From Octopus vulgaris (Eukaryota), in assembly GCA_951406725.2 (NCBI GenBank), contig OX597814.1:61504001-61568000 (forward strand): 64,000 nt of DNA, written 5' to 3'. The position numbers and the translations under genes are program-made. The first letter of the stretch is position 1, and every line of letters begins with the position of its first letter. The notes beneath the pieces are model-generated. The model was not told the origin of the DNA, did no database searches, and saw only the letters and a program-made list of their open reading frames with translations. Shown piece by piece: positions 24,029 through 64,000 of the stretch.

Positions 24029-25919
24029 GTGAATGAATACTGTAGTTGAGAGATTGGCCTATTATTGTTATTCTCCTGAATTTCTTTGTGATTTAGTTGT
24101 ATTAGTTTGCCTGTAATCATTACTCTTGAGCTGCATATGCAACTATTTATTTTTTGCCTTAGGAGCCAAGAGGGTTCAAATGTGAGACAATGTGTAACTA
24201 CTGACATCTACTTAAATCTAACCAATATTACTACTACAAAAGGCAGCAGGTTGGCAGAATCATTAGCACATCAGGCAAAATGCTTAGCAACATCATGTCC
24301 ATCTTTACATTATAAGATCAAATTCTGCTGGTGTTGATTTTGCTTTTCATCTTTTCAGTACCTGTTGTGCATTGGGGTCAGTGTAACTGATTTACCACCC
24401 CCTGAAATTGTTGATCTTATGCTAAAATTTGAAACCAGTATTACCACTACAAGCAGGCCTTGTGCCTGTGTTAAAAATCAATATTAGAAATGTATGTGGT
24501 GATAAGAATCAAAAGAATCAGTTAAAATGTTTTTTTCCCCTGGAAGATTTATGAGTATCGACCATATCTAGGAGAACATTTATACATTTATGAAATGAAA
24601 CAGCTTCAATTTAGAATCAGAGTTTGTGTTCAGATAATAAGATATCTGTTGCACCTTTTGGAATGGTAATTTCAAATAGTAATTTATTTGGTCTACCATC
24701 TTATTATTTCTTTGACACGTTTGGTAAAGGATATTAGAAATTTATAAACTGTTCTGCATGAGGTAGTGCTTTAGAGTCAGCAGATATATTTTTACAAGAG
24801 TCTAGACATGTGGAAGGCCAACTGGAAATTCATTTCCACCCAATCACCTTGACAGTATTTGCTAGTTGGATTCTGTATAATCGTTATTGCTGCTGCTGCC
24901 GCTGCCACCACCACCACCACAAACTCGTCCTCCTCCTCTTCCTTCCCTCTATAAACTTATTCAGTTTAGTTTCTGGTTATTTTTGGTTGAATTCTAAATA
25001 TGTATAATTTTCCCCAATAAAACATATATATATGTAAAAGCCTCACATGTAAGGTTTATCTTGAGGATTTCACTCCAGCTCAGTAGCAGTCAACTGTTTT
25101 AAGTTAAATTTACATGTATAATGACTGTTAGGTTAATAATTTCAATAAGTTGTGGTTGATTTACCGGGTGAGTTGTTTGAAGTGAGGTTTTAACTTATAT
25201 TACACCCAAGACTATCAGAAATCTTATCAGCTAGAAATTGAATCAAACAATAATGTGCTGGTTACTAATATATTTGCATTACCTTATGCTCAGTGTTGTT
25301 TTAACAAGCAAGTTACTAATATGCTTTAGTTTACTAAATATATTGTACATTAAAATGGTGTCAGGTTCTTGGAAGTAAGATTTAATGACTTCTCAAATAT
25401 ATTTTTGTGTGAAATGCTTAAATTATTAATTACAGATATTTTTACCTTCAGAGTTTCTTTGCGAAAACAACACACTTAAGGAAATATTTGGTATTATTCA
25501 ATAAAAGAAAGACTCAAGTTATTTCAAATAAAATCTCCTTTCTTTATTGAGAATGATTTGTGAAATGTTGATATCTTTTTTCAATAATTTCAGTTGTGTT
25601 TGTATTACATTTGGTAATAAAATTTTAAAGGGAAATGTTTCATTTAGGGAAATGTTGGCAATTTCTTTTAGAATTCGTACTTTATTTTGGCAGGGAAGAA
25701 CTTTCATCTACATGACCTTTGACGTTATTACTTTCGATGTTGGCCAAGATAACAGGTAAATTGTCACCAATACATTCAGTGTGAAATATTCTACAAATAT
25801 ATCTATTGAGTGAAGATGCGCATGGGCTCTCAGTTTGTCCCCTTTTCTCTGGATCTGTTGCATCAGTTGGGTCTAATTTTGACATGGCCTTCTGTGCTAT
25901 ATTTTTTCCAGAGTAGAGA

Positions 25920-26090
25920 ATGTCTGAAGTGCCAACCTCACAGACCAGTGAGATTGAAAACGGCTCGCAGGAGATATCTATTGTGCATGTGACAATACCT
26001 AACCAACCAGTCCAAGTGCAATCTGTTATACAATCTAGCCATCAACCATCAGTGATACAGACAACTGGCCCAAATGTTCAGACTATTCAG
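25920..26090 (+). CDS. CREB1: CREB-family transcription factor, first coding exon (Q1 glutamine-rich region); exon acceptor at 25911/25912
   Basis: Acceptor ttttttccag, ATG at 25920 with an in-frame TAG just upstream, donor cag|gtaggt. Translates as MSEVPTSQTSEIENGSQEISIVHVTIPNQPVQVQSVIQSSHQPSVIQTTGPNVQTIQ, which contains the CREB VQVQSVIQ..QPSVIQ motif. Ends in phase 0. Confidence 0.93.
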
Positions 26091-27085: not shown

Positions 27086-27168
27086 GTAGCTACAGTAAAT
27101 GATGATATGACAGATGGTGCTGAAGGAAGAAAGAGGAGAGAGATATTAGCTAGAAGACCTTCATATCG
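27086..27168 (+). CDS. CREB1: CREB coding exon, KID/P-box N-terminal half with the PKA site
   Basis: Acceptor ctttcag, donor cg|gtattt. Translates as VATVNDDMTDGAEGRKRREILARRPSY(R); RRPSY is the Ser133-equivalent motif. Phase 0 to 2. Confidence 0.97.
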
Positions 27169-30404: not shown

Positions 30405-30538
30405 TAAAATTTTGAATGAATTATCGTCCGAGTGTCCACCTATCAAAATTGAGGAACCTACAAATCAAGACGGTCAAGAGACCACTGAAGCAGCTTCAAA
30501 CCTCAGTACAAATTCCATACAGTACCAGCCTGCAACAG
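30405..30538 (+). CDS. CREB1: CREB coding exon, KID C-terminal half and linker
   Basis: Acceptor ttttcttacag, donor ag|gtgagt. Translates as (R)KILNELSSECPPIKIEEPTNQDGQETTEAASNLSTNSIQYQPAT. Phase 2 to 1, continuing the previous exon exactly. Confidence 0.96.
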
Positions 30539-33500
30539 GTGAGTTCATTCAAACTTTTGAAACTAATTTACTTTGACCTTTTACCATAAAGACTTTCATA
30601 AAAGGTTAGTAATTTCATCCAGTGTTCTTACTGTGAGAAGAAATATTCTGTTTTATTTATTTACATCTATATTTAGATGAGTTTCTTCTTTCAATTTTCA
30701 AGATCTCTGATTCCTTTTTATATTCAAATATAAATTTGAATGATATTGCAGAGTAAAATCCATTGAAAAAACGAATTATGCCACTTCATGGCAAGTGATT
30801 TCATTTCTAGTGTAGCATCAGAGAAAATGATTTTTTAAAAATTAAACAATCTTTGGAAATTCATTAAATACACAATTTATCAAAGGCTAGTCTTTAAACG
30901 TTTCTAATTATTTAGCTTTATAAATTTTTTTGATACATGAGAAGAGCTGGACTCATTGTATCAAAGAGTGACCTGTCTGAAGTTTAGGCTTATATAAGTT
31001 TATACCTTCCTCTATCTTATTTGGGATTGTCGTAATATAGTAGAGGGTGGCAGTTTTGCAAACAAATATTGACTATGTTCATTTGTATAAACAATAAGAA
31101 GAGAGATATAACAGTGATATTAATAAATGGATTGCAATAATATGGACAGAAGTCTCTATTTTTGTAAAAGAAGTCTCTATTTTTGTAAAAGATCAAGAGC
31201 TGAAAACATACAGTTTGTTTTCAAAACAAAATGTACATGGTGAAAATAATGTTAGCTTGTGGGGAACCGTTCCATTTTCTGAAGTCATCATTGTTGACTT
31301 AAGTACACACAACTGATTCTTGCCATCCTCTTAGATTGAACCACTTGTGCAGAGACTGAACAGTTTGCATATTTTATATTTACTTGTCCATATCCCTGAC
31401 CAATATGCTGTCTGTCAAAACACACTTGACCTCTCTCCTCTTCAAACCCAGCCATCATTGTTTCTGTTGTTAATTAGGTGACCTGATCACTACCCTCTCA
31501 AGGCTTCAGACCTCACATCTGCTTTCCTCTAAAGTTTTTGTTATTTCAGCTCAGTTAATCAACAGAGCTCTATTAGTTATTTCACCTCTGCCTCATGTTA
31601 GATAAGTAAATAGTCAAAACAGTTGATCCTTCATTATCTCCCATTGCTAATTGTGTGGCATTTATCCACCATATCAACACATGGAACACAATCATGAAGA
31701 AAACAAAGGATTCCTCTGTGTATTACAAGGTCTGCAATATGTTTTGACTCATAAATTTCAGTTGGGCCTTTTAGTCCTTTGCCAAATGAGTCTCTAGGTT
31801 GCTACACTTCAACCAAAATGGTGCTGTAAGTAGTACACCATCTAAGAAAGTTATTCTATTTGCTCTCCATTTTATCACACATACTCACAAAACTTTTCTC
31901 CACAACACCATGCTCGCCACCATCTTTAGCCAGTTACTTAATACATGTGATTCACTAATTACCCAACTGTACAAGTTGATCACTCCTAATAGTTCACTCT
32001 GTTTCTCTAAAACAATGTTGCTCTAGTAATAACTCTTATTCCCATCAAATATTTCATCCCTTCTCTTTGTAGAGAAATCTATCACAACATATGGAAACAC
32101 AACAGAATGCCTCCACAAAGCCTTCTAACCTATCAAGTTAAAAGTGCATAAAAAATCATCTCCTTTATTACTTAAACTCTCTCTCCTTGCCTGGTGGTCA
32201 CTTGTATGGCATGGTTTCCTTAGAGATAGATCTATCAGAAACTTCCTTTCCTATGTCACTTGAGAACTTTGATGAAAGCAATAGGTGTTATCTTTGACAA
32301 TTACAAAATCTTTGCCTATGTTTGCATAGGAATCCTAAGTTGCTTACCTATAAGTTGCAAACATCAATTATCTCTTGGATCAGAATTTTACTGTTAGAAT
32401 ACTCTGTCACACTGGAATATGCCATGGTTTGATTATGTTTCCTGCACTCAGTTGTCTACAAGGTTACAGAGTTCACTTTGGAACCATGTGGTTCCAGGTT
32501 CTGTTCTGTTGTGTGGTCTGTTTTGTAAGTTCTTTGGGATGTGCAATGCCTTGTGGATAAAATTTGATAGAAGAAAACTGTATGGAAGCCTGTCACATAA
32601 TATGAGTGTGCATATGTGAATGATTGTTTTTGTGTGTCTTCATATTAATACCATTTGAGTGATGGTGTATTTGTTTCCATCTCTAGTAAACAGTATCTCC
32701 TGTATCTTGGTGGTGGCTTCATTGATTTTGAATGAAGATCTGTAGAATAAGAAAATACCTTCCTCAAAAACAAGTAAAGGATACTTCTTCAATAAGTGTC
32801 AGTCAGCCCATGCCAACATGGAAAAAGTAGATGTAAAAACGATGGTGATGACAATGATGACTTTTCTATTGTACATCACTTGCCTTACTATTGCTGATGA
32901 TAAAACTTCCATTCCCCTTTTTATTTTTCTGATTCCAAGCATCACCCACATCTAACATAGATACTCCATGCCAGACTTGAACTGTTTCTGGTGACCTCAA
33001 AATAAAAAAAAAAAAAAACTCCTTCAATAGGTGCAACACCCAGTCACCATGAAGATTGTACATACATAATGCCAAAGAGTACCCTAAAAACTAAACTACT
33101 TCTCTTTGGCCAGTAGATAACTTCAGTTGTCACCAGTTGCCTATCCCAACTAATTCTGATCCTCTGATCTAACTAGTAGCATACTACATGTACCTTTTCC
33201 CCACTTGGTGCATTTGTATCTCATCTCGTTTTTTCATCCCCAACACCACATTGCTCAATCACTTCTCCCAAAACTGCATCCCTCTTCAATTTTTCTTTGC
33301 CATGTTGGTGTTGTTTTACTTCAGGTCAGCCCTGACTAAGCAAAGCTATTTCAGCTATGGCCATCCTGTTTTGTATTTCCATTTGGACAATGTCCAGTTT
33401 GTCCTTTCTGTTTTTGAGATAGTAAGGCAAAGTTTAAGGGAGATTTGGTTGTTATTTCTAGCAGGTTGAATGACTGCATAGAGACTCCCTTGTTGGCTAT

Positions 33501-38420: not shown

Positions 38421-40873
38421 ATCAATTAGATACATAGATATATGACCCTTACTTTTGAGATTAGTAAATTTAACATGAAAGCTTACACTAAAGTAAATGA
38501 AAAATAATATTGTGAAGGAAACGCCAAAACCTAATAATTACTTCTGATTCTGACTCCCTGACTTTTCAGATCTGAATATTGCAATACAATTGCAATTGTA
38601 TCAGATGTAAGAATTGTTTCAAATTAAAAAATTTTTTAGCTTTTGACTGTTTGAAAATGTAATCTTATTTGAATGTTTCTAATATTTAGAGTTGATAAGG
38701 GCAGTGAGCTGGCAGAATCAGTGGCATGTCAAGCAAAATGCTTAACAGTATTTCATCTGTCTTTATGCTCTGAGTTCAAATTCTGCCAAGGTCTACTTTG
38801 CCTTTCATTATTTCAGGGTCGATAAAATAAGTACCAGTTGAGCCCTGGTGTTGATATAATCAACATACCCTCTCCCCAAGATTTGCTGACTCTGTGTCAA
38901 AATTTGAAACCAGTATTTAGGATTGATAAATTTGCTTTCTGCTTTTGATATCCTGATTTCTATTTTCCATAAATCTGTAGTTTCTTTTGAGTGTATGTAT
39001 GTGTGTCAGAGTATGAATGTGAGTGAGTGTATGTGTACTTTATATACAATGAGAAAGAGATGAAGGAAATAAGTATATTCAGTACTATCCCACCCCACCC
39101 ATCCTATGAAAGAGAGAAAGAAAAAGAGAATTGTGGTCTGGACATTCTATATTATTCTGTGTGTGCATGAAAATGTGCTAAGAGAAGTAACTTAGGTTGA
39201 TTAGTGGCATGTATCTGAACACTGTAGATAATAAAGGTGTATTAAGTAACATGAGATAAATTCTTGCTTTATTGATATTATTTCAACTTGAAGAGAGGGT
39301 AGCATAATCACTTGGTGGACTTCAAATAAGAAGTGGCAGGTACTCCCAAAAATCACAGATTCTTCATAATAGACATACCATTAAGGAAATAACAGTGTGA
39401 CTTCTGGAAGCCAAAAGGATAAACATGGACATGTTTCTGCTTCAATCAGTGTTAACATCACAATTGTCCTATCTATCTTCAGCAGACAATACACATAGAC
39501 GTTTTAAAAAAAAGAGTATATAGCATTGGTAATTTGCACAAAGGAAACAAAAAAGGTGGCATGTGTGTGGTGTATTTGAATCACTAAGATGAATATATAT
39601 ATATATATATGCATACATAAATACATATGTATATATATATGTATGTGTGTGTATATATATACATATATGTATTGGTAACTTGCCGAATCACTTAAGAAGC
39701 ATCCAGCTATAAAAATTATGCCAAAACTGATCGTGCCTTTGCTCATGCCACATAAAAAGTGATCAGTCCAATCTGCGGGGTGGTCGGTTAGGAATGGCAT
39801 CTCACCATATGGTACAGTCTTCTGCTTGGCCAGCTCCTGTCAAACCGTGCCAGCATGGAAGGAGGACGTTAAACAATGATGACAATTATATATATATATA
39901 ATCAATTTAGCATTCACTTTTCCATGCTTAGGTGGGTCAGATGGAGTTTATTGAGGCAGATTTTGTATGGTCGGATGACCATCATAATGTCAAAACAAGG
40001 AGACACATACACACACGACGGGCTTCTTTCAGTCTCCATCTACCAAATCCACTCACAAGGCTTTGCTTGACCTTGGATGATAGTAGAAGATGTTAAAAAC
40101 ATACCATACTGTCTCACACATAACAGAATGAGTTAAAAGACTTCACTCTACTGAGAATTATCCTTGCAATTAAGAGGTAAAAAAAGATAGATGGCGGGGT
40201 GTTTAAAATTTTAAACCAAAGTGCAAGGGAGATAATTACAGATATAGTGATTAATATAAAATTTTGAAATCTAGATAGTGCTTTTTCATAATAAGAATTG
40301 CTACTTTCTCTGTATTTCGGTATTTACTAATCACTTTTAAGTCTTTCCAACTGTGTTGATGAAATTTAACAAGTCATAAAAAAACATGATCAACTTGTAA
40401 ATGCATTTTTTTCATTTCCAAAAGAAATTGGATTTCGATGTTATTAGAGTTATCTCCCTCTTTTATTTCTAAGCTTTTACTGCAGAGATAATTCAAGTTT
40501 TTCACTTTACTATATTACAATCTGTAACACTATTGTAGATGTATCGAATATGCTTGGCTGATAAGATCTGATGCAATAGGAAGACATCCGTTGCTATCAC
40601 TTGTAATACCAAAGTCGTATTCCTAGAATTACATCCCCTGCTCGTTTTCATATTTTCAAATAGCCCCTGAAAGAATTTTTCTTCTAATTAACTGCAAATT
40701 TACTCTCAGCTAACTTACATATTTCAATGCCCTTTAAATGTACATAAGTGAAACTGCTGTATGTAATATATATATATATTTTAATATAGATAATACAGTT
40801 CTATGTTTAAGAGTGAGGAATTATGTACATTATTTACATTTGATGGATATTTGTCCGCAAATTGTTTGTTTTT

Positions 40874-48596: not shown

Positions 48597-50790
48597 TTGT
48601 CCTTACTCTGAACTGCTTCTCGTTCGCGGGCGAGTTCTACCATCAGGTCTCGGGAGTGGCCATGGGAACGCGAATGGGCCCCAACTATGCGAACCTGTTC
48701 GTTGGCTATGTTGAGGCCCAAATATTCTCTAATTTCACTGGTCCCACTCCTGAACTATATGGTCGTTATATTGACGACATTATCGGTGCCACCTCACTCT
48801 CCCGCGAACATCTAGATTCCTTCCTCTCTTTCGTCCAATCTTTCCATCCAGCCCTCCACTTCACTTCCACTATCTCCAACACCTCTGTCTCCTTCCTCGA
48901 CATTTCGGTTAGCATTCTTCACTCCACTCTTACCACCTCCATTCACTACAAACACACAGACTCACACTCATACCTCAACTTCTCTTCCTCCCACCCAGAA
49001 CACACCAAGCTTTCCATCCCCTATTCCCAATTCCTCCGTCTACGTAGGCTCTGTAGTGACGACCATGACTTTGAGACTCAGTCTCAACGTATGGCTCACC
49101 ACTTCACCCTATGTGGATACCCCCTCACCACTATCCACACCGCCCTTGCCAGAGCACGGTCCGTGGACCGTGTATCTGCTCTCTCTCCCCGAACCCACCC
49201 TGTAGTCTCCCGCCTCCCTTTTCCCATCACTTACCACCCCACGACCCTACGTCTCCAACGCACCATTCTTCGAGCTTTCCGTCATCTCCAGTCCGACCCG
49301 TCCACTTCACACCTCTTCCCTAACCGACCCCTCCCCTCTTTCAAACGAGCCCACAACCTTCGAGACCTTTTGGTCCATAGCTCCTTCCCTGACCCTACCT
49401 CCCAACCCGGCTTGTTCCCCTGCTCCCGCCCACGTTGCCGCACTTGCCCTTACCTCTCCAACATCACCCGCCTCACTAGCACCCACCATCGACCCTATCC
49501 CATCATCCACTCCTTCACCTGCACCTCCAGCAATATTATCTATTGCATCTCTTGCTCTCTCTGCAATTCCTTGTACATCGGACAAACGGGACGCCGCTTG
49601 GCTGACCGGTTCGCGGAACACCTTCGTGACATCCACCTTGCGAACGACACACCGGTCTCACGCCATTTCCGCTCCACCGGTCACTCCTTGCAACACCTAT
49701 CTGTGTTCGGTTTGTCCTTACATAGAGGCCATCCGGATTCCCGTTTGCGCCGTGAACAGGAATTAATCTTCTCTCTTCGCTCTTATACGCCATTTGGTCT
49801 CAACTCTCCCCCTCCTCATCTAACCCCCTCTCCCCCCTCCTCACCTATCCTTTCTCCCCCGACCCCTACTTCTTCAGTCCTTCATCCTTTCACCCCTACT
49901 CTCCTTCCCTTCTTCCCTCTTTCTCCCTCCCTCTTCCCCTTCCCTCTGCTCCCTCACTCCCTCTCTCCCTCTTTCCTCCTTCATCCCCCTCCTCCCCTTC
50001 CTTCTCCCCCATCCTCTCCTCTTCCCCCTTCTCCTCCCCCTCTTCTTCCCCTTGCCTTCTCTCCCCCTCTTCTCCCCCTCCCCCTCTTCTCCTCACTACA
50101 CCACATGACTTTACACATCACATCACATATGATGTGCCATACTAATACACACACCAACTAATACATACTAATACGTACTAATACATACCAGTACATACTA
50201 ATACTTACACCAACCCTATACATACACACGTCCAGACCCCGCATACGCACTTATACTCTCTCACACACACACACACACACACCTATACATACCAATACGT
50301 ACTAATACATACTAATACATACTAATACATACACCAACCCCATACATACGCACGTCCAGACCAATCTTACGCACTAATACTCTCTCATACACACACACAC
50401 ACACACACACCCTTATACATACTAATACATACACCAACCCTATACATACACACATCCAGACCCCTCCCACGCACTTTTAGCTGGTCCCTCAACCCTTTTA
50501 TCAACCCTATTATCTCCCCTTATTTCGCTCTCGCGTCTCATGTTTGATCTTTGACCTCTGGCCGAAATCAGATCGCCATGTTGATTCGTTAGCTACTGCA
50601 CGCATTTTTTTCTCTCCTTCTTTCTGTGTTTTTCTCTCTCTGTGTATCTTTCTGTTGAAGAGCGTAGGCTCAAAACGTTAAAGACTTGTTTTATTTATAT
50701 TTCCTGAGCGCCATACTAATACAATTGTTCGTTTGTTTTCCACCTGCCTTTGTCTTTTGTTTATTTTCATAAAGCTTCCCGTTATATATA
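48596..50790 (+). mobile_element. Penelope-like element (Neptune-type), 5'-truncated: RT C-half, Cys linker, GIY-YIG, 3' region with hammerhead relic
   Basis: Stop-free frame with [71 protein letters not shown] and [13 protein letters not shown]. Confidence 0.93.
50647..50684 (+). ncRNA. degenerate minimal hammerhead motif of the Neptune-type element
   Basis: tcttt-ctgttga-a-gagc-gtag-gctc-aaaa-cgtt-aaaga. Confidence 0.55.
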
Positions 50791-55058: not shown

Positions 55059-56358
55059 AGAGAGAGAGAGAGATGTGAGTGTGTGTGTGTTGCTTCCATA
55101 TTTTTGCTTGTAAGAGGGATACTATTGGAAATTATCTTCAATTTAATTCTGACATTGTTGATGTTTTGCTTCTAGTAAAATATTAATGCTGTCTGCATGT
55201 GTGATATAGTTCCTTGTTGCTTTATTTGTCTGTGGCTCAAAATATTTCATGTTTTTCAAGCAAACCTACATACCTGTTTTGTATCATACATGTATATATA
55301 TATATATATAATATCTATTCTGTTAAAGTGTTTTACTGGTCACTTGTTACATTTTATGAACACATTCAATAAATCAATAATATTTCTTTGGAATACTTTT
55401 TCGCTTCTATGAAATCATATTGTCAGTTTTGAACCTGTTTTCTCACTTCAGCTTTTGTTTTTATTTGATATTGTGATTCTGTCATAATGTTCATTTACTA
55501 AAGTATTCATTATTTATTTTCAGTTGTAATTAGTGTTATTGATCTTGGTCTTGTTTTTCTGCTGTTTTCAACAATGTTTAAGTTAACAGAAATAATATAA
55601 TTTTGTTCTACTTCACAACTTGTTCTTCAAATATTTTGTTTTCATAAAAACAATGTTGGATATTTCATTTTAAATAAGTGTTTTTCAGGTGTTCTTAGTT
55701 TCTCTGAATATTTTATATATTCCATGATTTGGTTTGCTAATTCTGTGTCTGCTTTATAAATTGCAATTAAAGGTTTCTATTGATTAGTTTTCTGAGGGTA
55801 TATTTAGGTTCCATGCACTTGTCTAGTTATTTTGTTAATTTTATTTTATTAATTACTTGGTTAGAAATTCTTCTGATTGGTGTATTGTAATGATTTTCTG
55901 TTCAGTGGGTCAACATGTCTTCTGTTTTCATATTTTGCTTTTTCTCTCTCTGTCTCTCCAGTCAGAAAGGATCATAGAGCTTTGATATATTCCTGAGAGA
56001 TCAAATCCTAATTCTTCAGTGACAATTTGCAGCAACTACTATATTGCTTGAAATCTGAGCAAGAAATCATCAGTGATTAATTAGAGATTTTGTCACTAAT
56101 GTCCGAGGAAAAAAAATGATTCTAGTTGTTTTATTTTGTCTTCATGTTGAATAACCATTACTAATTCACAAAGAAGACATGATAATAAAATCTCCTAGAT
56201 AATTTTTTTTGTTGCTATTGTTGATTGACATACAAAACTAATTCAAAATAGATTTTATTGACATCTTTTTAAAACTAACTTATCTAAAAAAAAAGCAGTT
56301 TAAAATTTATGAATGTTTATTTTGTTTTTCTTTTTTTTCTTCTCTTCTTAAATTTTAG

Positions 56359-56382
56359 TATACAGCCAGATGGAAGGTTTGC
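56359..56382 (+). CDS. candidate 24-nt in-frame CREB microexon, (V)YSQMEGL(P)
   Basis: Very strong U/C tract plus tttag, donor c|gtaagt, length a multiple of 3, and open in the phase-1 frame required by the flanking exons. Confidence 0.6.
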
Positions 56383-59300
56383 GTAAGTATATTCTTAAAG
56401 TGGTTTGATATGTTTGCATATAGCGTAAGTATATTCACCTCTCCAATTAGATGTGTTCCCAAAAAGTGAACTTTCACACCTTTGGAAGATTGTGGCAACA
56501 TAGCTATATCAATTCTCAGGATTTGGTCTTTGGGATTCCACTTAGCTACTGCATGAATTAGTATCAAAGCACCTTTAATTTAGGACCTATTCAGCTAACT
56601 GTAGATTGTTTAGTTATCGTCTATATTATAACAAAGTGGATAGTTTCTGATTTTATAAGAATCCAGTTCTAGGAAGACTTGTCATTCAATCTGAAACAGT
56701 TTTAGATAACATAGTTTTTTGAGGTCAGTTTGTATGAGTGATTCTGTTACTCTTTCACAATTTCATTCTTTTTCCATGTTTTATGTTGTTTTCGTAATGT
56801 CATCAAAGACTGATGATCTGTTGTTGCTTTGTTATGTATTTTATTCTTCAACCATTGTGACAATAATATGGCTTAGCTACTTTACTTTTAATAATTATTT
56901 TATTGAATACTTGATTTTTTATACACTGTGTGCAGTAGCATGGTTTAGTTGACCTATGTTTAATAGTAGTAATACTTTTTAAAACATATGAACATAACAG
57001 TTATATCTAAGCATATATAGTAATTCATGACTTATAAGTGTTTTTCTTCTTAAGGAACGCAGACATAAGAATTTAATGAAAGTTTCATTTGAGATTATTT
57101 AGAGAATTGATGTGAATTCTTGCTTGATGGTTTGCACCATCTCTCCTTTATTCTATAATATTTCCTTTTATCCAAATGTCGAGGCATCTTCAGTTTCATC
57201 TTTGAGTTTCACTTGCTGTTCCCTATTTCTCTAAAGCGTGATAGATTTATTCAGCATACAGGCATACATATAGGCATATTCAGTTTCATATTCTTTCTCA
57301 TATTTTATTTAATTTTGTTTCCTTACTTTTCTGGGGTTTTTTTTTTAAGTTAAAAAAATTGTTCTGATAAAACATTGTCAATGTTAATTATGACTGGTTA
57401 TTTAAAACGATAGATATTTACGATATACTGAGGTTTTAGTGAACTCTCCTCATCATAATTTTTTTAATTATAATTTTAATTTTCACTTTACTATGCTTGC
57501 GTAGATCAAACAGAATTCATTAATGTAGATTTTCTATGGCCAGATAACCTTGTCACCAACCCTCTCCTGTTTCCAAGTAATGTTTCTCCATGACCAGTCA
57601 TTGTAATGATGGTGATGCATGCGTAGAACCATCATGTGCTGCCAAGACAAGAAGACACATATACACACACACATACACACACACAATTGCTCACTTACAT
57701 GCACAACATACACACATGCACATATATAATGGCCTTCTTTCAGTTTTCTTCCAAATCCACTCACAAAGCTTTGGTCAGCCAGGGACAATAATAGAGAACA
57801 TTTGCCCCAGGTGCTACACAGTGGGACTGAATCCAAAGCCATGTGGTTGGAAAGCAAACTTCTTAACCACACAACTATGCCTTCACCTACCTCATGTTTC
57901 ATTTAAAAATTTATTGCAGTTAATCTCACATAGCTATATTTTTTAACTGATCACTTTCACTTTAACAACACTGTAACTTTTTTGTGTTGCACTTATTATC
58001 TTGCACATTTTTATGTATGTGGCTCTGATAAATTAGTGTTTTAAATTACTTTGAATGTTGCCTCTTTAAGGCAGATTCTGTAAGTAATCTTTTGAATTAT
58101 TTTGTTCAAAACTCCAACCTCAATGAGAGCTGTCAGTTATTATATTTCCTGTAATGTCTAATTGTTGTTGATTTGTATAATATTCACCATGTTTTCATCT
58201 ATATCATCTCTGTGTTATTTAAAAAAAAAAGCATGGAATTTTATGTAATACTATTGCATGTTAGCGCTGAAGAAATAACTTGTCAACTTCATGTTTTATA
58301 TGTAGTGTCAGAAACTGTTTGGTAAAGAGAGTTAGTGAGATAACATATTTAGATTTATATTAGGACTTTGTGACAGACTAACGTGTAAATTAATTTGTAT
58401 GCATTTACAAATTTGTACCCATTGCTAATTTAGACAAATTTTTCTTTTCCATTTTTATCAATGTACGAATACTTCATTGAAATTTTCCTCACTTGCAATG
58501 GGTTATATTTCTTGATTTGTTGGCTGTAAAAGGGTTACTGGTGAAGTGATGTAAACATTTTGTTAAGAGGGAGTAAAGTGCCTGTAATATACGTAAATTT
58601 GCTCAAACCACTCGAATCTATGTCTTTACCATGACAAAGTAAGTTGTTAAATAATCACAGTTTAACCCATTAGCATTCAAATTAATCTGTCAAATGTAAT
58701 GCTTGTTTATTCACATTCATCATCATAATCCTCTTTTAATGTCCATTGTCCATGGGTTGGATGGTATAACCAGAGCTGGCAAGCTGGGGGTGGGGGCTGC
58801 ACCAGACTACAGTCTGATTTGGCATGGTCTCTATGTCTGGATGCCCTTCCTAATGCCAACCACTTTACAGAGTGTGCTGGTATTTATTATGTGGAACTAC
58901 ACGGGTACTTTTATGTGACACCACATGGGTACTTTTACATGTCGCTGCACAGACACTTTTATGTGGCACCACATGGGCACTTTTACATGGCACTGTCACA
59001 AGTGCTTCACACCATCTGAAGGATTGGTCTTAACACTTCTTCTGCAGAGTACAGGTCTTCTTGAGTACAGCCAGACACCAGGTATCTCAATCCTTGTGTC
59101 TTGCCAGAAAGGTTCAGCTTCCTCAGGTTGTTCTTCAGTGTAGTGTTTTGAAATAATCATGTACTATCTTGTAGCTTGGAGATTTCAGTGATGTGATTGT
59201 TTAGTTTTTATATTGACATTTGTAAGATAGGTATGTCTGGCCAGATCTTTCAGTTTGAACATAAAACAAGTAGTATATTTGGGTTTGATATAGCTGGTTT

Positions 59301-61038
59301 CAAAACTAAAGGGTTAAAATTATAGCACTGACATAATACCTTCATTCTGAAGAGGCTATTAGTCTTTTGTTGAAATAAAATATTTCATCTCATTATTTTC
59401 AAAAGGCAATGTATATTTTTCTTGATTAACATAATCATGTTGCTTAAATTACAATTGTATGATTTTCAATTGTATGCATTTTTCTCAAGTTTTGCTTTAA
59501 AGTTATAATTTTTCTTTCATCAGTAGTTATTAATATATCTAGAATAAATCCATGCCCGCATGGCAAAAAGAATGTAAAAATTATAGTGATGCACATAAAT
59601 ATCTACAAGGCTTAGAATGAACTATTTTAAGATTGGTTTCTGTTTTAGTTGAAAAGAAGAATGAACTTCATTTGTTGTGTACATTGCTTTTCTATACTAG
59701 CTTGGGTTACTCAAATATATTATCTAGGCATTGTTTTACAGCTGGATGCCCTTCCTGTTGTCAACCCTTATCTGTTTTACGAGTAAAGGATCTATTATTT
59801 TATATGACTTTAAAGGCACAGAGCCAGCAGATGGTTTGTTGACAAGAGGGAGAAATGACAACAACATCACTTGCTTGTATCTTATGATTTTGGGGGAAGA
59901 TCAAATATAAACAAACACACACACACTCTTTCACAAAAGATTTCTTTCAGCTTCCATCTACTAAATCTCCTCAAGGCTTTGGTCAGCCAGTGGCTAGAAA
60001 AGACTTGATCTAGGTGCCTTGCAGTGGGACTGAACCTAAAACCATATGGTTGGGAAACAAACTTTTTAACAACCCAGCCTTGACTTCTCCTCACCATACT
60101 TGTGCCTAGCCACCACTGATAATTTTAAATTGGAAAATGGGGTTACAATTTAAATGCAGTTCATGATCACCTTTTAAAATATTTTAATATTGTACCTGTC
60201 ATTCTTGTTTGAAAAATCTCTATGAAAGTTTTAATCTCATTCAACTTCCAATGTATGGTATGTAATAACAGTAACAAAATTTTTTTTTTTTTTTGTGTTT
60301 GTCCTTGGTTGGTAGGTGTTATTTCTTATTTGCTTCTATCTAGAAATCAAAGGAAATGACTACTATTCCCTTTAAACTTTGCTTTTGTCACCTGGACACT
60401 AATGTTTTGAAACCAACCTATTTTTCATTACATTTCAGACAGATTCAGCCTTGAGTTGCTGAAGCAGAAATATTGTTATAGCAAATATTCTGTTTAATAT
60501 CACAGATTTGCAAGGCAGCGAGCTGGCAGAGATGTTAGCACATCAGGCAAAATGCTTAGTGGTATTTTGTCTGTTGTTACGTTCTGAGTTCAAATTCTCT
60601 GACCATGAGCAGGAGTAAACAGGGAGCATCTTAGCCATATGTTGACAGGGATTCTTTGGGGTTTGAATAAATGTAACAACAGTTTTGATGGAAATATTAG
60701 CTATTTTTTATATTTTCTCAAGTGTAAGCAAATAGGAAATAACAGATGCTACCCAAGGACAAAAATCATGTTATGCAGTGTAATTGGTGTGTTGCTAAGA
60801 GTGTATAATTTCTGTATCTTTTAGATCTAAATTTTGTTATACATTCTACTCCTTACCTAAGTAATAGAAAATAGCTACCAACTGCACCTCACAGTAGATT
60901 GCATCTACTTTCTGAATATCTTAATGTCTGTATTGTTAAAAGAGAAAACCCCAGAGTAAAAAGATTGCTCATAGACCTTAAGTTTAAAACTAATCTATTG
61001 TTGGTATTTTGTTGTTTCCAAGCAAAGGAGTTTGGATG

Positions 61039-61553
61039 GAATTCTGGTTTAAGCATCCCATATAATCTCTCATAACTTTTTTATATGTTTGGAAATTTTC
61101 AGAAAATTTTTTGTGAATTTTATGTGGAATTCATATGAGTAAAACAAAAAAAATTTTCTTTTTAAATTTTTCAAATCTCCCCACTCTTAGATCCTAAAAG
61201 TTCCACTCTTTTTTGGTTTTACAAGTCAGAGTTTAAAATATGGACAATCCAAATTTTTTGCTTAAATCCCAGCAATGGACCTTGGGTGTATCATCATTTC
61301 ATTAAATGTGTTTAAGGAGAGAAAAATATTAAAAAACATTAATACATGTCAGAGTAACAAAGAAACAAGTAAAGTGTCAGGCAGTCATGGGATGAGCGAA
61401 AAGTAACAGTTAAATTGCCTTTAAATCACACTCAAACAACTTTTTTGTTGCTTTTTGCATAATTGTATGAATTTGCAAAAAATTTCAGAAAATCCCCCAA
61501 AATAAAAAAATAAAAGTTATGCATGGTTATATGGGGTACTTAAACCAGAATTC
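61039..61553. mobile_element. MITE-like element with long imperfect TIRs
   Basis: gaattctggtttaag..ccatataa..cataacttt pairs with aaagttatg..ttatatgg..cttaaaccagaattc. Confidence 0.6.
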
Positions 61554-63425
61554 TATTGAAGTTTGTTCTATTCATTATTACTTTTTACTTGTTTCAATCA
61601 CTAGACTGTGGCCATGCTGGAAGACTGCTTGAAAGATTTTAGTCAGTTATGTGACTCCAGTTCTGTTTTATTTATTTATTTATTTATCTTAATAATAATT
61701 TCTAGTTTTCATACCTCAGGAGATAAAACTCAGGCATCGTTTCTTTCAAGTGATGTCAAACATTAAGGCATATACAGGCATATACACACACACACACACA
61801 AGTTTTCACAGTTTCCATCTACCAATTTCACTTACAAGGAAGTAGTTGACTTAAGACTATAGTAGAAAACACTTACCCAACAAAACATTAATTTCATTTT
61901 ACTTGATTATTGAAAATTGATACTAGATCATGTGACAATTTTCACCTGTGGTAGACTAGCATTCAGTCTGGGGAAAGAACAGTCTCTCTTTTACTTTATG
62001 CTATGAGTATCAGTCCTTTTAAAAATCCCTTCAAGGCTTAAGTTTTTCTGTTGGATTAGATTCTTTGGAAGTTTTGTCATTACAGACAATCTACAAAAAA
62101 TGTAATCCTAGATTGTATTCTCACATATATTATAAATATTCTAGCTATCAAGAAGTTCATTATTAGTAATTATCTATTTAATCCTCAGTTTGTCTATTTA
62201 AGCTGCTTGGAAATAATTAGGAATGTTTGCATCAAGATTTCAATTTTATAAATATATCTGATTATCATCCTTTTTTCTTGAGATTTGTTTTATTTCTAAT
62301 GGATTTGGTATTGCTACAAATTCTTATACTTATATGTAGCTCTTTTCTTTTTGTTGCTAGATTTCATTCATCATTTTAATTATCCAGTTGTAGGAGTGAA
62401 TGTTGTAGTTTAGTCCCAATTTGATTGAGATCTATCGTGAACCATTGTCATCCTGTCTTTTTATTCCCACAGGTTTAATGTATTTTAAAGCATCATGTTA
62501 TTCAAGATACTACTCTTCTTTTTTAAGTGCATTTAATTAAAGGTAGATTTGGCTGACATTTCTAGCAGATGAATATTGAAGTGCCTTCATTTGGTCATCA
62601 TAGTTCTTGTGTTTTCAGTTTCTTGTACTTTTCGTAAGTTTTTCTTCTTGAAGCAGCAAAACCTTATATATGGCAAAAATTTTAGCATAGATTGTTCAAA
62701 TTGTAATTTTTTAATAAGTTGCTTTTAGTATGTCAGAGACCTAATTGGTTTATTGTTATAATCTTGGAAGTACCACTATCACACCGATACTTTTGGTAGT
62801 TTCAATTAGCCATTTTTAGTTAGTAGATGAATGAGATCACCAAACCTGAGTGATTTCAATTGCCTACACTCTTGAACCAGTACATAATGAGTTAAGAAGT
62901 TTTTAAGATCTGACTAATGAATTTACCTCCAAGAGTTACTTTGAGAATTTGTATCTTCTGATTACTGTTTGCCATTGTCTCCTAGAAAATGTGTTACTGT
63001 ATGTTTTTTAAACACACACACACACACTCACAATGTCTTTTTAGAGTTTTATTCTTTGTTTTGCAAACAACTCTTTTTGTATGGAGATTTTGATTTACAG
63101 AGATTGTTTGCTTCTTTTTATTTCTCTTATGTTATGACTTTGGAAGAATATTTAGTTCTCCCTTATTGAAATGTTCATAGTGTTTCTCTCTTTATAATTC
63201 GAAAGTGAGATCATTCTCTTTCTATAGCATACATATACACACTATTTTTCAAAAATTGTTATGCTTAATTTCACACATTCAAGTTTAACTGTTTTTACTA
63301 TTTTATGTCTATTTCATTTTGCTATAAACTGAACTCGCATTTTAATGCTTCTAAAATATATATATTTACCTCTGCTATGGCAGTATGATATTACATTTTT
63401 GTTTCCTTTTTCCATTTTATTTTAG

Positions 63426-63605
63426 CATTAGTCCCATCTGGTGCCATCCAAATAACTACACATCCAGAAGGAACAGTGGCTGGTCAAGGTCTTCAAACGT
63501 TAACAATGACCAATGCAAATCCATCATCTGGTGCTGGTACAACATCTGGTACTGCCACTATTGTACAGTATGCCCAAGGTCCTGATGGACAATTTTTAAT
63601 TCCTG
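63426..63605 (+). CDS. CREB1: CREB coding exon, Q2 activation domain; bZIP exons lie outside the window
   Basis: Long pyrimidine tract plus tttag, donor g|gtaagt. Translates as (A)LVPSGAIQITTHPEGTVAGQGLQTLTMTNANPSSGAGTTSGTATIVQYAQGPDGQFLIP, with the hallmark GLQTLTMTNA and TIVQYAQ..DGQ motifs. Phase 1 to 1. Confidence 0.96.
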
Positions 63606-63621
63606 GTAAGTAATTAACTGA

Positions 63622-63967
63622 ATCCATTTCCCACAATATGATAGTAGCTGTTCTCTATTATTAAGTCCAGAATGAATTTCTTAGGAATTCTGTTTCTATT
63701 TGTATAATAAGGAAAGCAAACATTTCTAAGGGATGTTTATCTTGTTGATCTTTTTACTTACATTGATGGAAAGTGAGCCATTACCTCGTTCAGCTCTTCC
63801 TTTTAGCCATTGCTTACACATAGAATTATGTAGTTCTAAATGTTGGGGCTTTGTCACAAGCATTAACTAAATTCATTTTCCCACAGTATAATAGTAGTTC
63901 TCTATTATTAAGTCCAGAATGAATTTCTTAGGAATTCTATTTCTAGTTTTACAATAAGGAAAGCAAA
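63622..63967. repeat. direct duplication of about 100 bp just after the Q2 exon
   Basis: ttcccaca..tagtag..ttctctattattaagtccagaatgaatttcttaggaattct..aataaggaaagcaaa at about 63622-63720 and 63872-63967. Confidence 0.85.
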
Positions 63968-64000
63968 TGTAGTTGTTAGGCATGCAATTACTTCCCATAC

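What the first reader, a model, noticed from the sequence alone, without database searches (positions are those of the whole stretch)
56270..56560. Candidate 24-nt frame-preserving microexon in CREB between KID and Q2
Seen: inside the 32.9-kb phase-1 intron, one of the strongest pyrimidine tracts in the window ends in tttag. It is followed by 24 nt (tatacagccagatggaaggtttgc) and a consensus gtaagt. Inclusion adds eight residues, changing ...QPAT-A-LVPS to ...QPAT-VYSQMEGLP-LVPS, with no stop. An ACTAAC (branch point or Quaking-type motif) lies at 56274-56279 and a TGCATG (Rbfox motif) at 56550. Known: 3-27 nt microexons are typically neuron-specific in bilaterians. Inference: this is a regulated CREB isoform that gains an SQ (ATM/ATR-type) site and an internal Met, from which a KID-less repressor-like form could start.
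Basis: partly seen in the sequence, partly recalled or inferred. Interest (0 to 1): 0.85.

Follow-up and report, generated by a model that had tools for sequence, protein, structure and literature searches.

The report
Conserved 24-base microexon in octopus CREB
A 24-base optional exon in the octopus memory-linked gene CREB is real, is already in public transcript records and has a counterpart in cuttlefish; its eight extra amino acids likely fine-tune CREB's activation domain, and nerve-specific use remains untested.

Summary
The exon is real and already on record, though no paper found discusses it. Window 56359-56382 (TAG|24 nt|GTAAGT, phase 1-1) appears with both junctions exact in a 2009 Octopus vulgaris brain cDNA. 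Database isoform pairs show inclusion and skipping in Octopus (296/288 aa) and Sepia pharaonis (299/291 aa). The peptide is VYSQMEGLP in octopus and (V/A)LGQMDGLP in decapodiform-type records, so length and Q-M-[ED]-G-L-P are kept but SQ is not. The internal-Met repressor idea is weak: poor start context, an overlapping out-of-frame ATG, and an annotated KID-less form that starts in exon 1. New here: four ACTAAY motifs cluster 85-264 nt upstream (2 of 5000 shuffles). There is no UGC within 100 nt of the acceptor, which fits STAR/QKI-type control better than typical eMIC control. The insert lands next to the region matching mammalian CREB's TAF4-binding Q2 hairpin, and other molluscs vary at the same junction. 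Tissue specificity could not be tested. Verdict: a genuine, annotated coleoid microexon with an open, testable regulatory question.

The parts
56359..56382 (+). 24-nt cassette microexon, phase 1-1; with flanking bases codes VYSQMEGLP in place of A
   Evidence: both junctions exact in the O. vulgaris brain cDNA; isoform pairs P0118/P0117 and P0119/P0121
56299..56358 (+). AG-exclusion zone (58 nt), pyrimidine tract and TAG acceptor; no TGC in the 100 nt upstream
56383..56388 (+). GTAAGT donor
56095..56279 (+). Cluster of four ACTAAY motifs (56095, 56160, 56237, 56274), candidate STAR/QKI or SF1 sites
   Evidence: 2 of 5000 local dinucleotide shuffles reach 4; 0 motifs in the 300 nt before the 7 other acceptors checked; binding is inferred
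56550..56555 (+). TGCATG (Rbfox-type motif; label recalled), 168 nt downstream; weak
   Evidence: P about 0.065
25694..26090 (+). CREB exon with main ATG (25920) and Q1
27086..27168 (+). CREB KID exon (RRPSY)
30405..30538 (+). Upstream flanking exon (KILNELSS...YQPAT); holds an out-of-frame ATG at 30416
63426..63605 (+). Downstream flanking exon, start of Q2 (LVPSGAIQI...LQTLTM...QGPDGQFLIP)

Best explanation
This is an alternatively spliced 24-nt exon of the octopus CREB1/CREM gene, included in a brain cDNA, skipped in other annotated transcripts and matched by an eight-residue insert in cuttlefish, that likely tunes the constitutive Q2 activation domain and is likely gated by a STAR/Quaking-type protein binding the upstream ACUAAY cluster. 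Shown: splice sites, frame, brain inclusion, both isoforms in database records, and conservation of length and of Q-M-[ED]-G-L-P. Inferred, function: the insert sits just N-terminal to the residues matching mammalian I183-A184-I185. In mammalian CREB these belong to a transient hairpin (172-185) that binds TAF4 and Q1 and affects chromatin residence, so inclusion would change basal activation strength by respacing that element while leaving KID and bZIP intact. Inferred, regulation: strong splice sites would favour inclusion by default, and a STAR protein on the ACUAAY cluster would repress it where abundant. By the mammalian pattern (QKI high in muscle, low in neurons) this would give more inclusion in neurons.
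For: Brain cDNA with exact junctions. Isoform pairs in O. vulgaris, O. sinensis and Sepia pharaonis; O. bimaculoides records hold the 288-aa skip form and 249/248/232-aa inclusion forms. Decapodiform-type read-through proteins show the insert is neither a donor nor an acceptor extension (P0325, P0278). A vertebrate-type locus has its intron directly before (I)AITQGG (L078), and Conger CREM reads IYQTSSGQYIAITQGGAIQI. YIAI>AAAA or deletion of 162-179 lowers residence time and reporter activity (PMC10666024 passages). The ACTAAY cluster is non-random and absent at 7 of 7 other acceptors checked. QKI represses exons through upstream ACUAAC (PMC13004596). A STAR_dimer gene is in this genome. In decapodiform-type assembled contigs of cluster 3, skip forms were seen on 59 contigs and inclusion forms on 7 (tissues unknown, not a PSI). 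Oyster, clam and scallop isoform pairs also differ at this junction.
Against: No tissue-resolved inclusion data and no functional data. AlphaFold2 gave pLDDT below 50 and no hairpin at the junction in either isoform, so the structural step rests on mammalian NMR and on an alignment whose register is ambiguous (MAFFT puts vertebrate GQY on octopus IQY). The nearest ACTAAY is 85 nt upstream, outside the 20-60 nt zone studied for QKI/SF1 competition. The cluster statistic was chosen after seeing the sequence. Conservation of the cluster in other coleoids is untested. 4 of the 6 spliced Octopus models in the cluster include the exon, which would also fit broad inclusion.
Confidence: 0.45

Rival explanations
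1. It is a classic neural microexon switched on by the eMIC domain of Srrm234; its effect on the protein could be as in the best explanation.
For: 24 nt, frame-preserving, conserved, included in brain; 58-nt AG-exclusion zone and strong tract with 2 TCTC/CTCT words; a PF15230 SRRM_C match above cut-off in this genome (that this family is the eMIC domain is recalled). 21-26% of human SRRM3/4 targets lack UGC (bioRxiv 2024.09.17.613571).
Against: No TGC within 100 nt of the acceptor (nearest at -146). eMIC exons are described as having very weak 3' splice-site regions (PMC8797185), whereas this tract runs almost to the AG. The AG-exclusion zone is not exceptional (24-67 nt at the other acceptors).
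Confidence: 0.22
2. It is a broadly included or weakly regulated spacer in a disordered linker, kept because it is harmless or mildly useful; skipping is leakage caused by small size and long introns.
For: The region is predicted disordered. Length at this junction varies freely across molluscs. Both splice sites are strong, and most Octopus models include the exon.
Against: Same length and 5-6 of 9 residues identical between octopus and decapodiform-type sequences, across a split of roughly 270 million years (date recalled); non-random ACTAAY cluster.
Confidence: 0.22
3. The exon supplies a start codon for a 163-aa KID-less Q2-bZIP repressor, like the 167-aa Lymnaea repressor.
For: The Met is kept in all 7 inclusion sequences seen. 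It is the first in-frame Met after KID and would give 163 aa, close to Lymnaea's 167 aa (PMC3105992). The Met that gastropods have just after KID is absent in coleoids. KID-less transcripts are annotated in two Octopus species (P0120).
Against: Context is C at -3; on the KID-less transcript a scanning ribosome first meets an in-frame exon-1 ATG and then an out-of-frame ATG whose 50-codon frame overlaps this Met; the next in-frame ATG (LTM) has A at -3 and is present with or without the exon. No record starting at this Met was among the proteins fetched.
Confidence: 0.08
4. The exon adds an ATM/ATR phosphorylation site (SQ).
For: S132-Q133 is present in the octopus inclusion form; ATM/ATR regulate mammalian CREB (PMC11333461).
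Against: GQ in 3 of 3 decapodiform-type inclusion sequences. It is a lone site: the only other S/TQ are at 7 and 16. The mammalian sites listed lie in KID, before S133.
Confidence: 0.03

Closest known systems
Annotated Octopus and Sepia CREB/CREM isoforms (FJ617443; UniRef C0KKU6_OCTVU; XP_029638655.1 vs XP_029638680.1; XP_052825826.1; CAE1228142.1 vs CAE1228140.1)
   Same: The very same exon and both splice forms.
   Different: No text found treats it as a microexon or tests its regulation or function.
eMIC/Srrm234 (SRRM3/4) neural microexons
   Same: Size, frame preservation, conservation, brain inclusion.
   Different: No UGC near the acceptor; strong rather than weak 3' region; neural specificity unshown.
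QKI-repressed exons with upstream ACUAAC (RAI14 exon 11); QKI/RBFOX2-regulated Snap23 microexon
   Same: Several ACUAAY motifs upstream; a UGCAUG downstream.
   Different: Motifs lie 85-264 nt upstream, not 34-43 nt; in Snap23 QKI binds downstream and activates (abstract); no binding data in any mollusc was found.
CREB splice variants: mammalian alpha region (residues 87-100), Lymnaea activator and repressor, Aplysia CREB1a/b/c
   Same: Alternative splicing in the disordered activation region of CREB.
   Different: The alpha region lies before KID; the molluscan repressors lack KID. This exon keeps all domains and lies at the start of Q2.

Membership tests
CREB1/CREM/ATF1 bZIP factors (host gene) | pKID domain plus bZIP_1 domain | tested here: met
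   PF02173 and PF00170 above cut-off in P0118 and P0117; exons map to this locus
Microexon (3-27 nt cassette) | Length 3-27 nt with canonical AG/GT | tested here: met
Microexon (3-27 nt cassette) | Spliced in and spliced out in transcripts | tested here: met
   Inclusion: cDNA. Skipping: database gene models only; no skip-junction read was seen here
eMIC/Srrm234 neural microexon | UGC close to the 3' splice site | tested here: not met
   None within 100 nt; the motif is found in 74-79% of human targets
eMIC/Srrm234 neural microexon | Long AG-exclusion zone, UCUC-rich tract, strong CUAAY branch point | tested here: inconclusive
   Zone of 58 nt vs 24-67 at other acceptors; 2 TCTC/CTCT; CTAAC present but upstream of two AGs
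eMIC/Srrm234 neural microexon | Neural-specific inclusion dependent on eMIC | not testable with these tools
   No tissue-labelled read data were available
QKI/STAR-repressed exon | Several ACUAAY motifs in the upstream intron | tested here: met
   4 in 264 nt; 2 of 5000 shuffles
QKI/STAR-repressed exon | Motifs within about 20-60 nt of the acceptor, usable as branch sites | tested here: not met
   Nearest is 85 nt upstream (zone)
QKI/STAR-repressed exon | STAR protein binds and represses | not testable with these tools
   A STAR_dimer gene exists in the genome; no binding data
KID-less CREB repressor (Lymnaea 167 aa, Aplysia CREB1b) | Protein initiated downstream of KID, retaining bZIP | tested here: inconclusive
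   A KID-less model exists (P0120) but starts in exon 1; context of the microexon ATG is weak
ATM/ATR substrate site | Conserved S/TQ site | tested here: not met
   GQ in decapodiform-type sequences

The most novel reading that the evidence does not exclude
Coleoid cephalopods evolved their own neural splice switch in CREB: a Quaking-gated, UGC-independent microexon that retunes the TAF4-binding start of Q2. It would sit at a junction where oysters, clams, scallops and snails independently vary the same element, making this junction a recurrent molluscan dial on CREB's basal activity that bears on cephalopod memory.
Probability: 0.2. Interest if true: 0.6.

Novelty: already known. Interest (0 to 1): 0.3.

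Why it matters
CREB isoform balance is central to long-term memory in molluscs, yet octopus CREB splicing has not been studied in the papers found. The reference O. vulgaris CREB clone is the inclusion form, and the published qPCR primers lie downstream of the exon, so they cannot tell the isoforms apart. If inclusion proves neural and Quaking-gated, this is a cheap, well-defined model for microexon control outside the eMIC code in a lophotrochozoan, and a natural variant of the TAF4-binding part of Q2. If it proves unregulated, it is an ordinary annotated isoform.

Tried and rejected
Four runs laid on 55100-64000 were swamped by interspersed repeats. The tables were cut (15 of 99 joints and 24 of 805 loose ends shown), none of the rows shown touched the microexon or the Q2 exon, and repeat masking cut reads at 56310-56351. 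This says nothing either way.

AlphaFold2 on both isoforms with matched 80-row alignments: the junction region had pLDDT below 50 and no hairpin in either; inconclusive. The idea that the insert mimics the second Q2 hairpin (YAQGPDGQFLIP) was tested: it scored above all 181 other 12-mers, but 370 of 5000 shuffles of the octopus insert and 1101 of 5000 of the Sepia insert did as well; not supported.

Metagenome scan for relatives: 80 loci kept, best long match 61% identity, none with the coleoid junction, so intron conservation could not be checked. Two bivalve-like genomic loci had short introns (222 and 385 nt) with no microexon candidate and no ACTAAY. PF16274 (Qua1) found nothing in the genome; PF16544 did. 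The representative search added no further protein with the insert among 146 new sequences. No Nautilus record was seen, so the age of the exon beyond coleoids is open. Sadamoto 2010 and Torres-Mendez 2019 were not held. Earlier scan findings: none. Supplements of bioRxiv 10.64898/2026.09.05.749416, which covers O. bimaculoides tissue-specific exons, are closed and may list this exon. In PMC9699675 the PDF supplement was not searched and only 24,410 characters were searchable.

Full report
Observation. The sequence is as described. The exon runs 56359-56382 between TAG and GTAAGT, inside a 32,887-nt phase-1 intron (30539-63425). Its pyrimidine tract ties for the top among 840 YAG sites of the intron, and a simple scan found only one other, weaker candidate site. 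The exon with its splice sites is single-copy in the 2.8-Gb genome. The host gene is an Octopus CREB1/CREM: its exons match P0118 here and downstream of the window, with pKID and bZIP domains.

The exon is real and already on record. A search with the Q2 exon returned O. bimaculoides XP_052825826.1, which contains QPATVYSQMEGLPLVPS. Its cluster holds 296-aa and 288-aa forms (O. vulgaris, O. sinensis; the 288-aa form also O. bimaculoides) and a 232/224-aa pair. Of 7 members, 4 include the exon, 2 skip it and 1 is an unspliced read-through. The O. vulgaris creb cDNA FJ617443 came from a supra-oesophageal mass library and codes 296 aa (PMC2722649, passages); its supplement shows both junctions exactly. 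Brain inclusion is therefore shown. Skipping rests on database gene models.

Conservation. Sepia pharaonis has 299- and 291-aa forms differing by VLGQMDGLP versus A at the same place, and an unnamed assembled protein has ALGQMDGLP. Read-through proteins of decapodiform type show intron sequence unrelated to the insert on both sides (P0325, P0278), so it is inferred to be a separate cassette there too. Argonauta and two other coleoid-type clusters showed only the skip form. In cluster 3, unnamed assembled contigs carried skip forms 59 times and inclusion forms 7 times; tissues are unknown and these counts are not inclusion levels.

The SQ is GQ in all three decapodiform-type inclusion sequences and is isolated in octopus; the mammalian ATM sites listed lie in KID (PMC11333461, passages). 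The Met is conserved and would give 163 aa, near the 167-aa Lymnaea repressor (PMC3105992, first quarter of the text; Aplysia background from PMC5772390 passages). But the annotated KID-less model P0120 joins exon 1 (upstream of the window) to the 30405 exon and is open from an exon-1 ATG. On that transcript an out-of-frame ATG overlaps the microexon Met, whose -3 base is C. This reading is not excluded but is unlikely.

Regulation. eMIC targets typically have UGC near a weak acceptor (PMC8797185, passages), though about a quarter of human targets lack it (bioRxiv 2024.09.17.613571, passages). This exon has no TGC in 100 nt and a strong tract. It has four ACTAAY motifs at -85, -122, -199 and -264. 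2 of 5000 local dinucleotide shuffles reached four; with the 26 intron sites placed at random, some 300-nt window reached four in 3.4% of trials. None lies before the 7 other acceptors checked, and the only other cluster in the window is a short tandem repeat near 50140. In mammals QKI represses exons through upstream ACUAAC and is high in muscle and low in neurons (PMC13004596, abstract and passages), although the motifs studied there are closer to the acceptor. The genome has a STAR_dimer gene and an SRRM_C match, so both regulators are possible. The TGCATG is weak evidence; QKI and RBFOX2 can also drive a muscle microexon (PMC12064062, abstract), so even the direction of any tissue bias is not assured.

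Effect on the protein. Mammalian Q2 residues 172-185 form a transient hairpin that binds TAF4 and Q1, and YIAI>AAAA lowers activity (PMC10666024, passages). Conger CREM reads IYQTSSGQYIAITQGGAIQI, and a vertebrate-type locus has its intron just before (I)AITQGG, as octopus does before (A)LVPSGAIQI. The insert thus lands next to the second strand of that element, whichever register is used for the upstream residues. AlphaFold2 predicts disorder here in both forms and adds nothing. Oyster, clam and scallop pairs differ at the same junction by 2-3 residues (GSF, GDY, GDL), and longer inserts occur in unnamed mollusc-type proteins. Most begin with Gly, as a downstream alternative donor would give (inference; their genomes were not seen).

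Novelty. Searches for octopus + CREB + isoform, microexon + cephalopod, microexon + octopus, the accession, and cephalopod + squid + CREB + exon + alternative splicing (listings) found no paper on this exon. A 2026 preprint covering O. bimaculoides tissue-specific exons does not mention CREB in its main text, nor does PMC9699675; PMC9712504 names it only in a reference. The feature is known as an annotation and undescribed as biology.

Verdict. A correct prediction of a real, conserved, already annotated microexon. Best reading: a regulated tuner at the start of Q2, probably under STAR-type control (0.45). Interest 0.3; 0.6 if the neural, Quaking-gated reading holds (probability 0.2).

Noticed in passing
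window 55920-56210: A second very strong acceptor (CAG before 55962; 35 of 40 pyrimidines, 9 TCTC/CTCT words, TGC at -26) with no good donor. In frame it reads VRKDHRALIYS-stop, and an AATAAA-type signal lies at 56184: a possible terminal exon giving a bZIP-less CREB, or a decoy. One low-depth contig covers 55937-56205.
   Followed up: partly
window 56381-56394 and 56423-56436: A 14-nt duplication of the donor region puts a second GTAAGT 42 nt downstream. Its use would give a 66-nt exon with an in-frame TGA, a possible poison variant.
   Followed up: partly
L090:1501-1608 (G000:C1:61496246 onward, upstream of the window): CREB exon 1 holds an ATG frame whose peptide DVATTYSANLSTPIAAKLVTK is identical in Aplysia (P0144) and nearly so in Physella (P0044). 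The region carries a full CRE (TGACGTCA) and several half-sites: a conserved upstream ORF or a conserved regulatory element. It is in frame with Q2-bZIP when the Q1 and KID exons are skipped.
   Followed up: partly
window 30538-30550: Read-through of the upstream donor codes G-E-F-I, and G-E-F is also seen in two decapodiform-type read-through proteins. It resembles vertebrate GQYI and clam GEYI/GDYM, but octopus has no second GT there.
   Followed up: partly
window 25694-25911: The 2009 brain cDNA uses a Q1-exon acceptor at 25694; an AG at 25910-25911, just before the ATG, could serve as a shorter alternative acceptor.
   Followed up: no
window 38981-39022: A weaker candidate 42-nt in-frame exon (VSFECMYVCQSMNVT) with GTGAGT donors; not seen in the isoforms examined.
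   Followed up: no
window 50140-50430: Short tandem repeat rich in ACTAAT (10 motifs within 300 nt).
   Followed up: no
window 57470-61900: Several high-copy interspersed repeats, heavily represented in assembled contigs.
   Followed up: no
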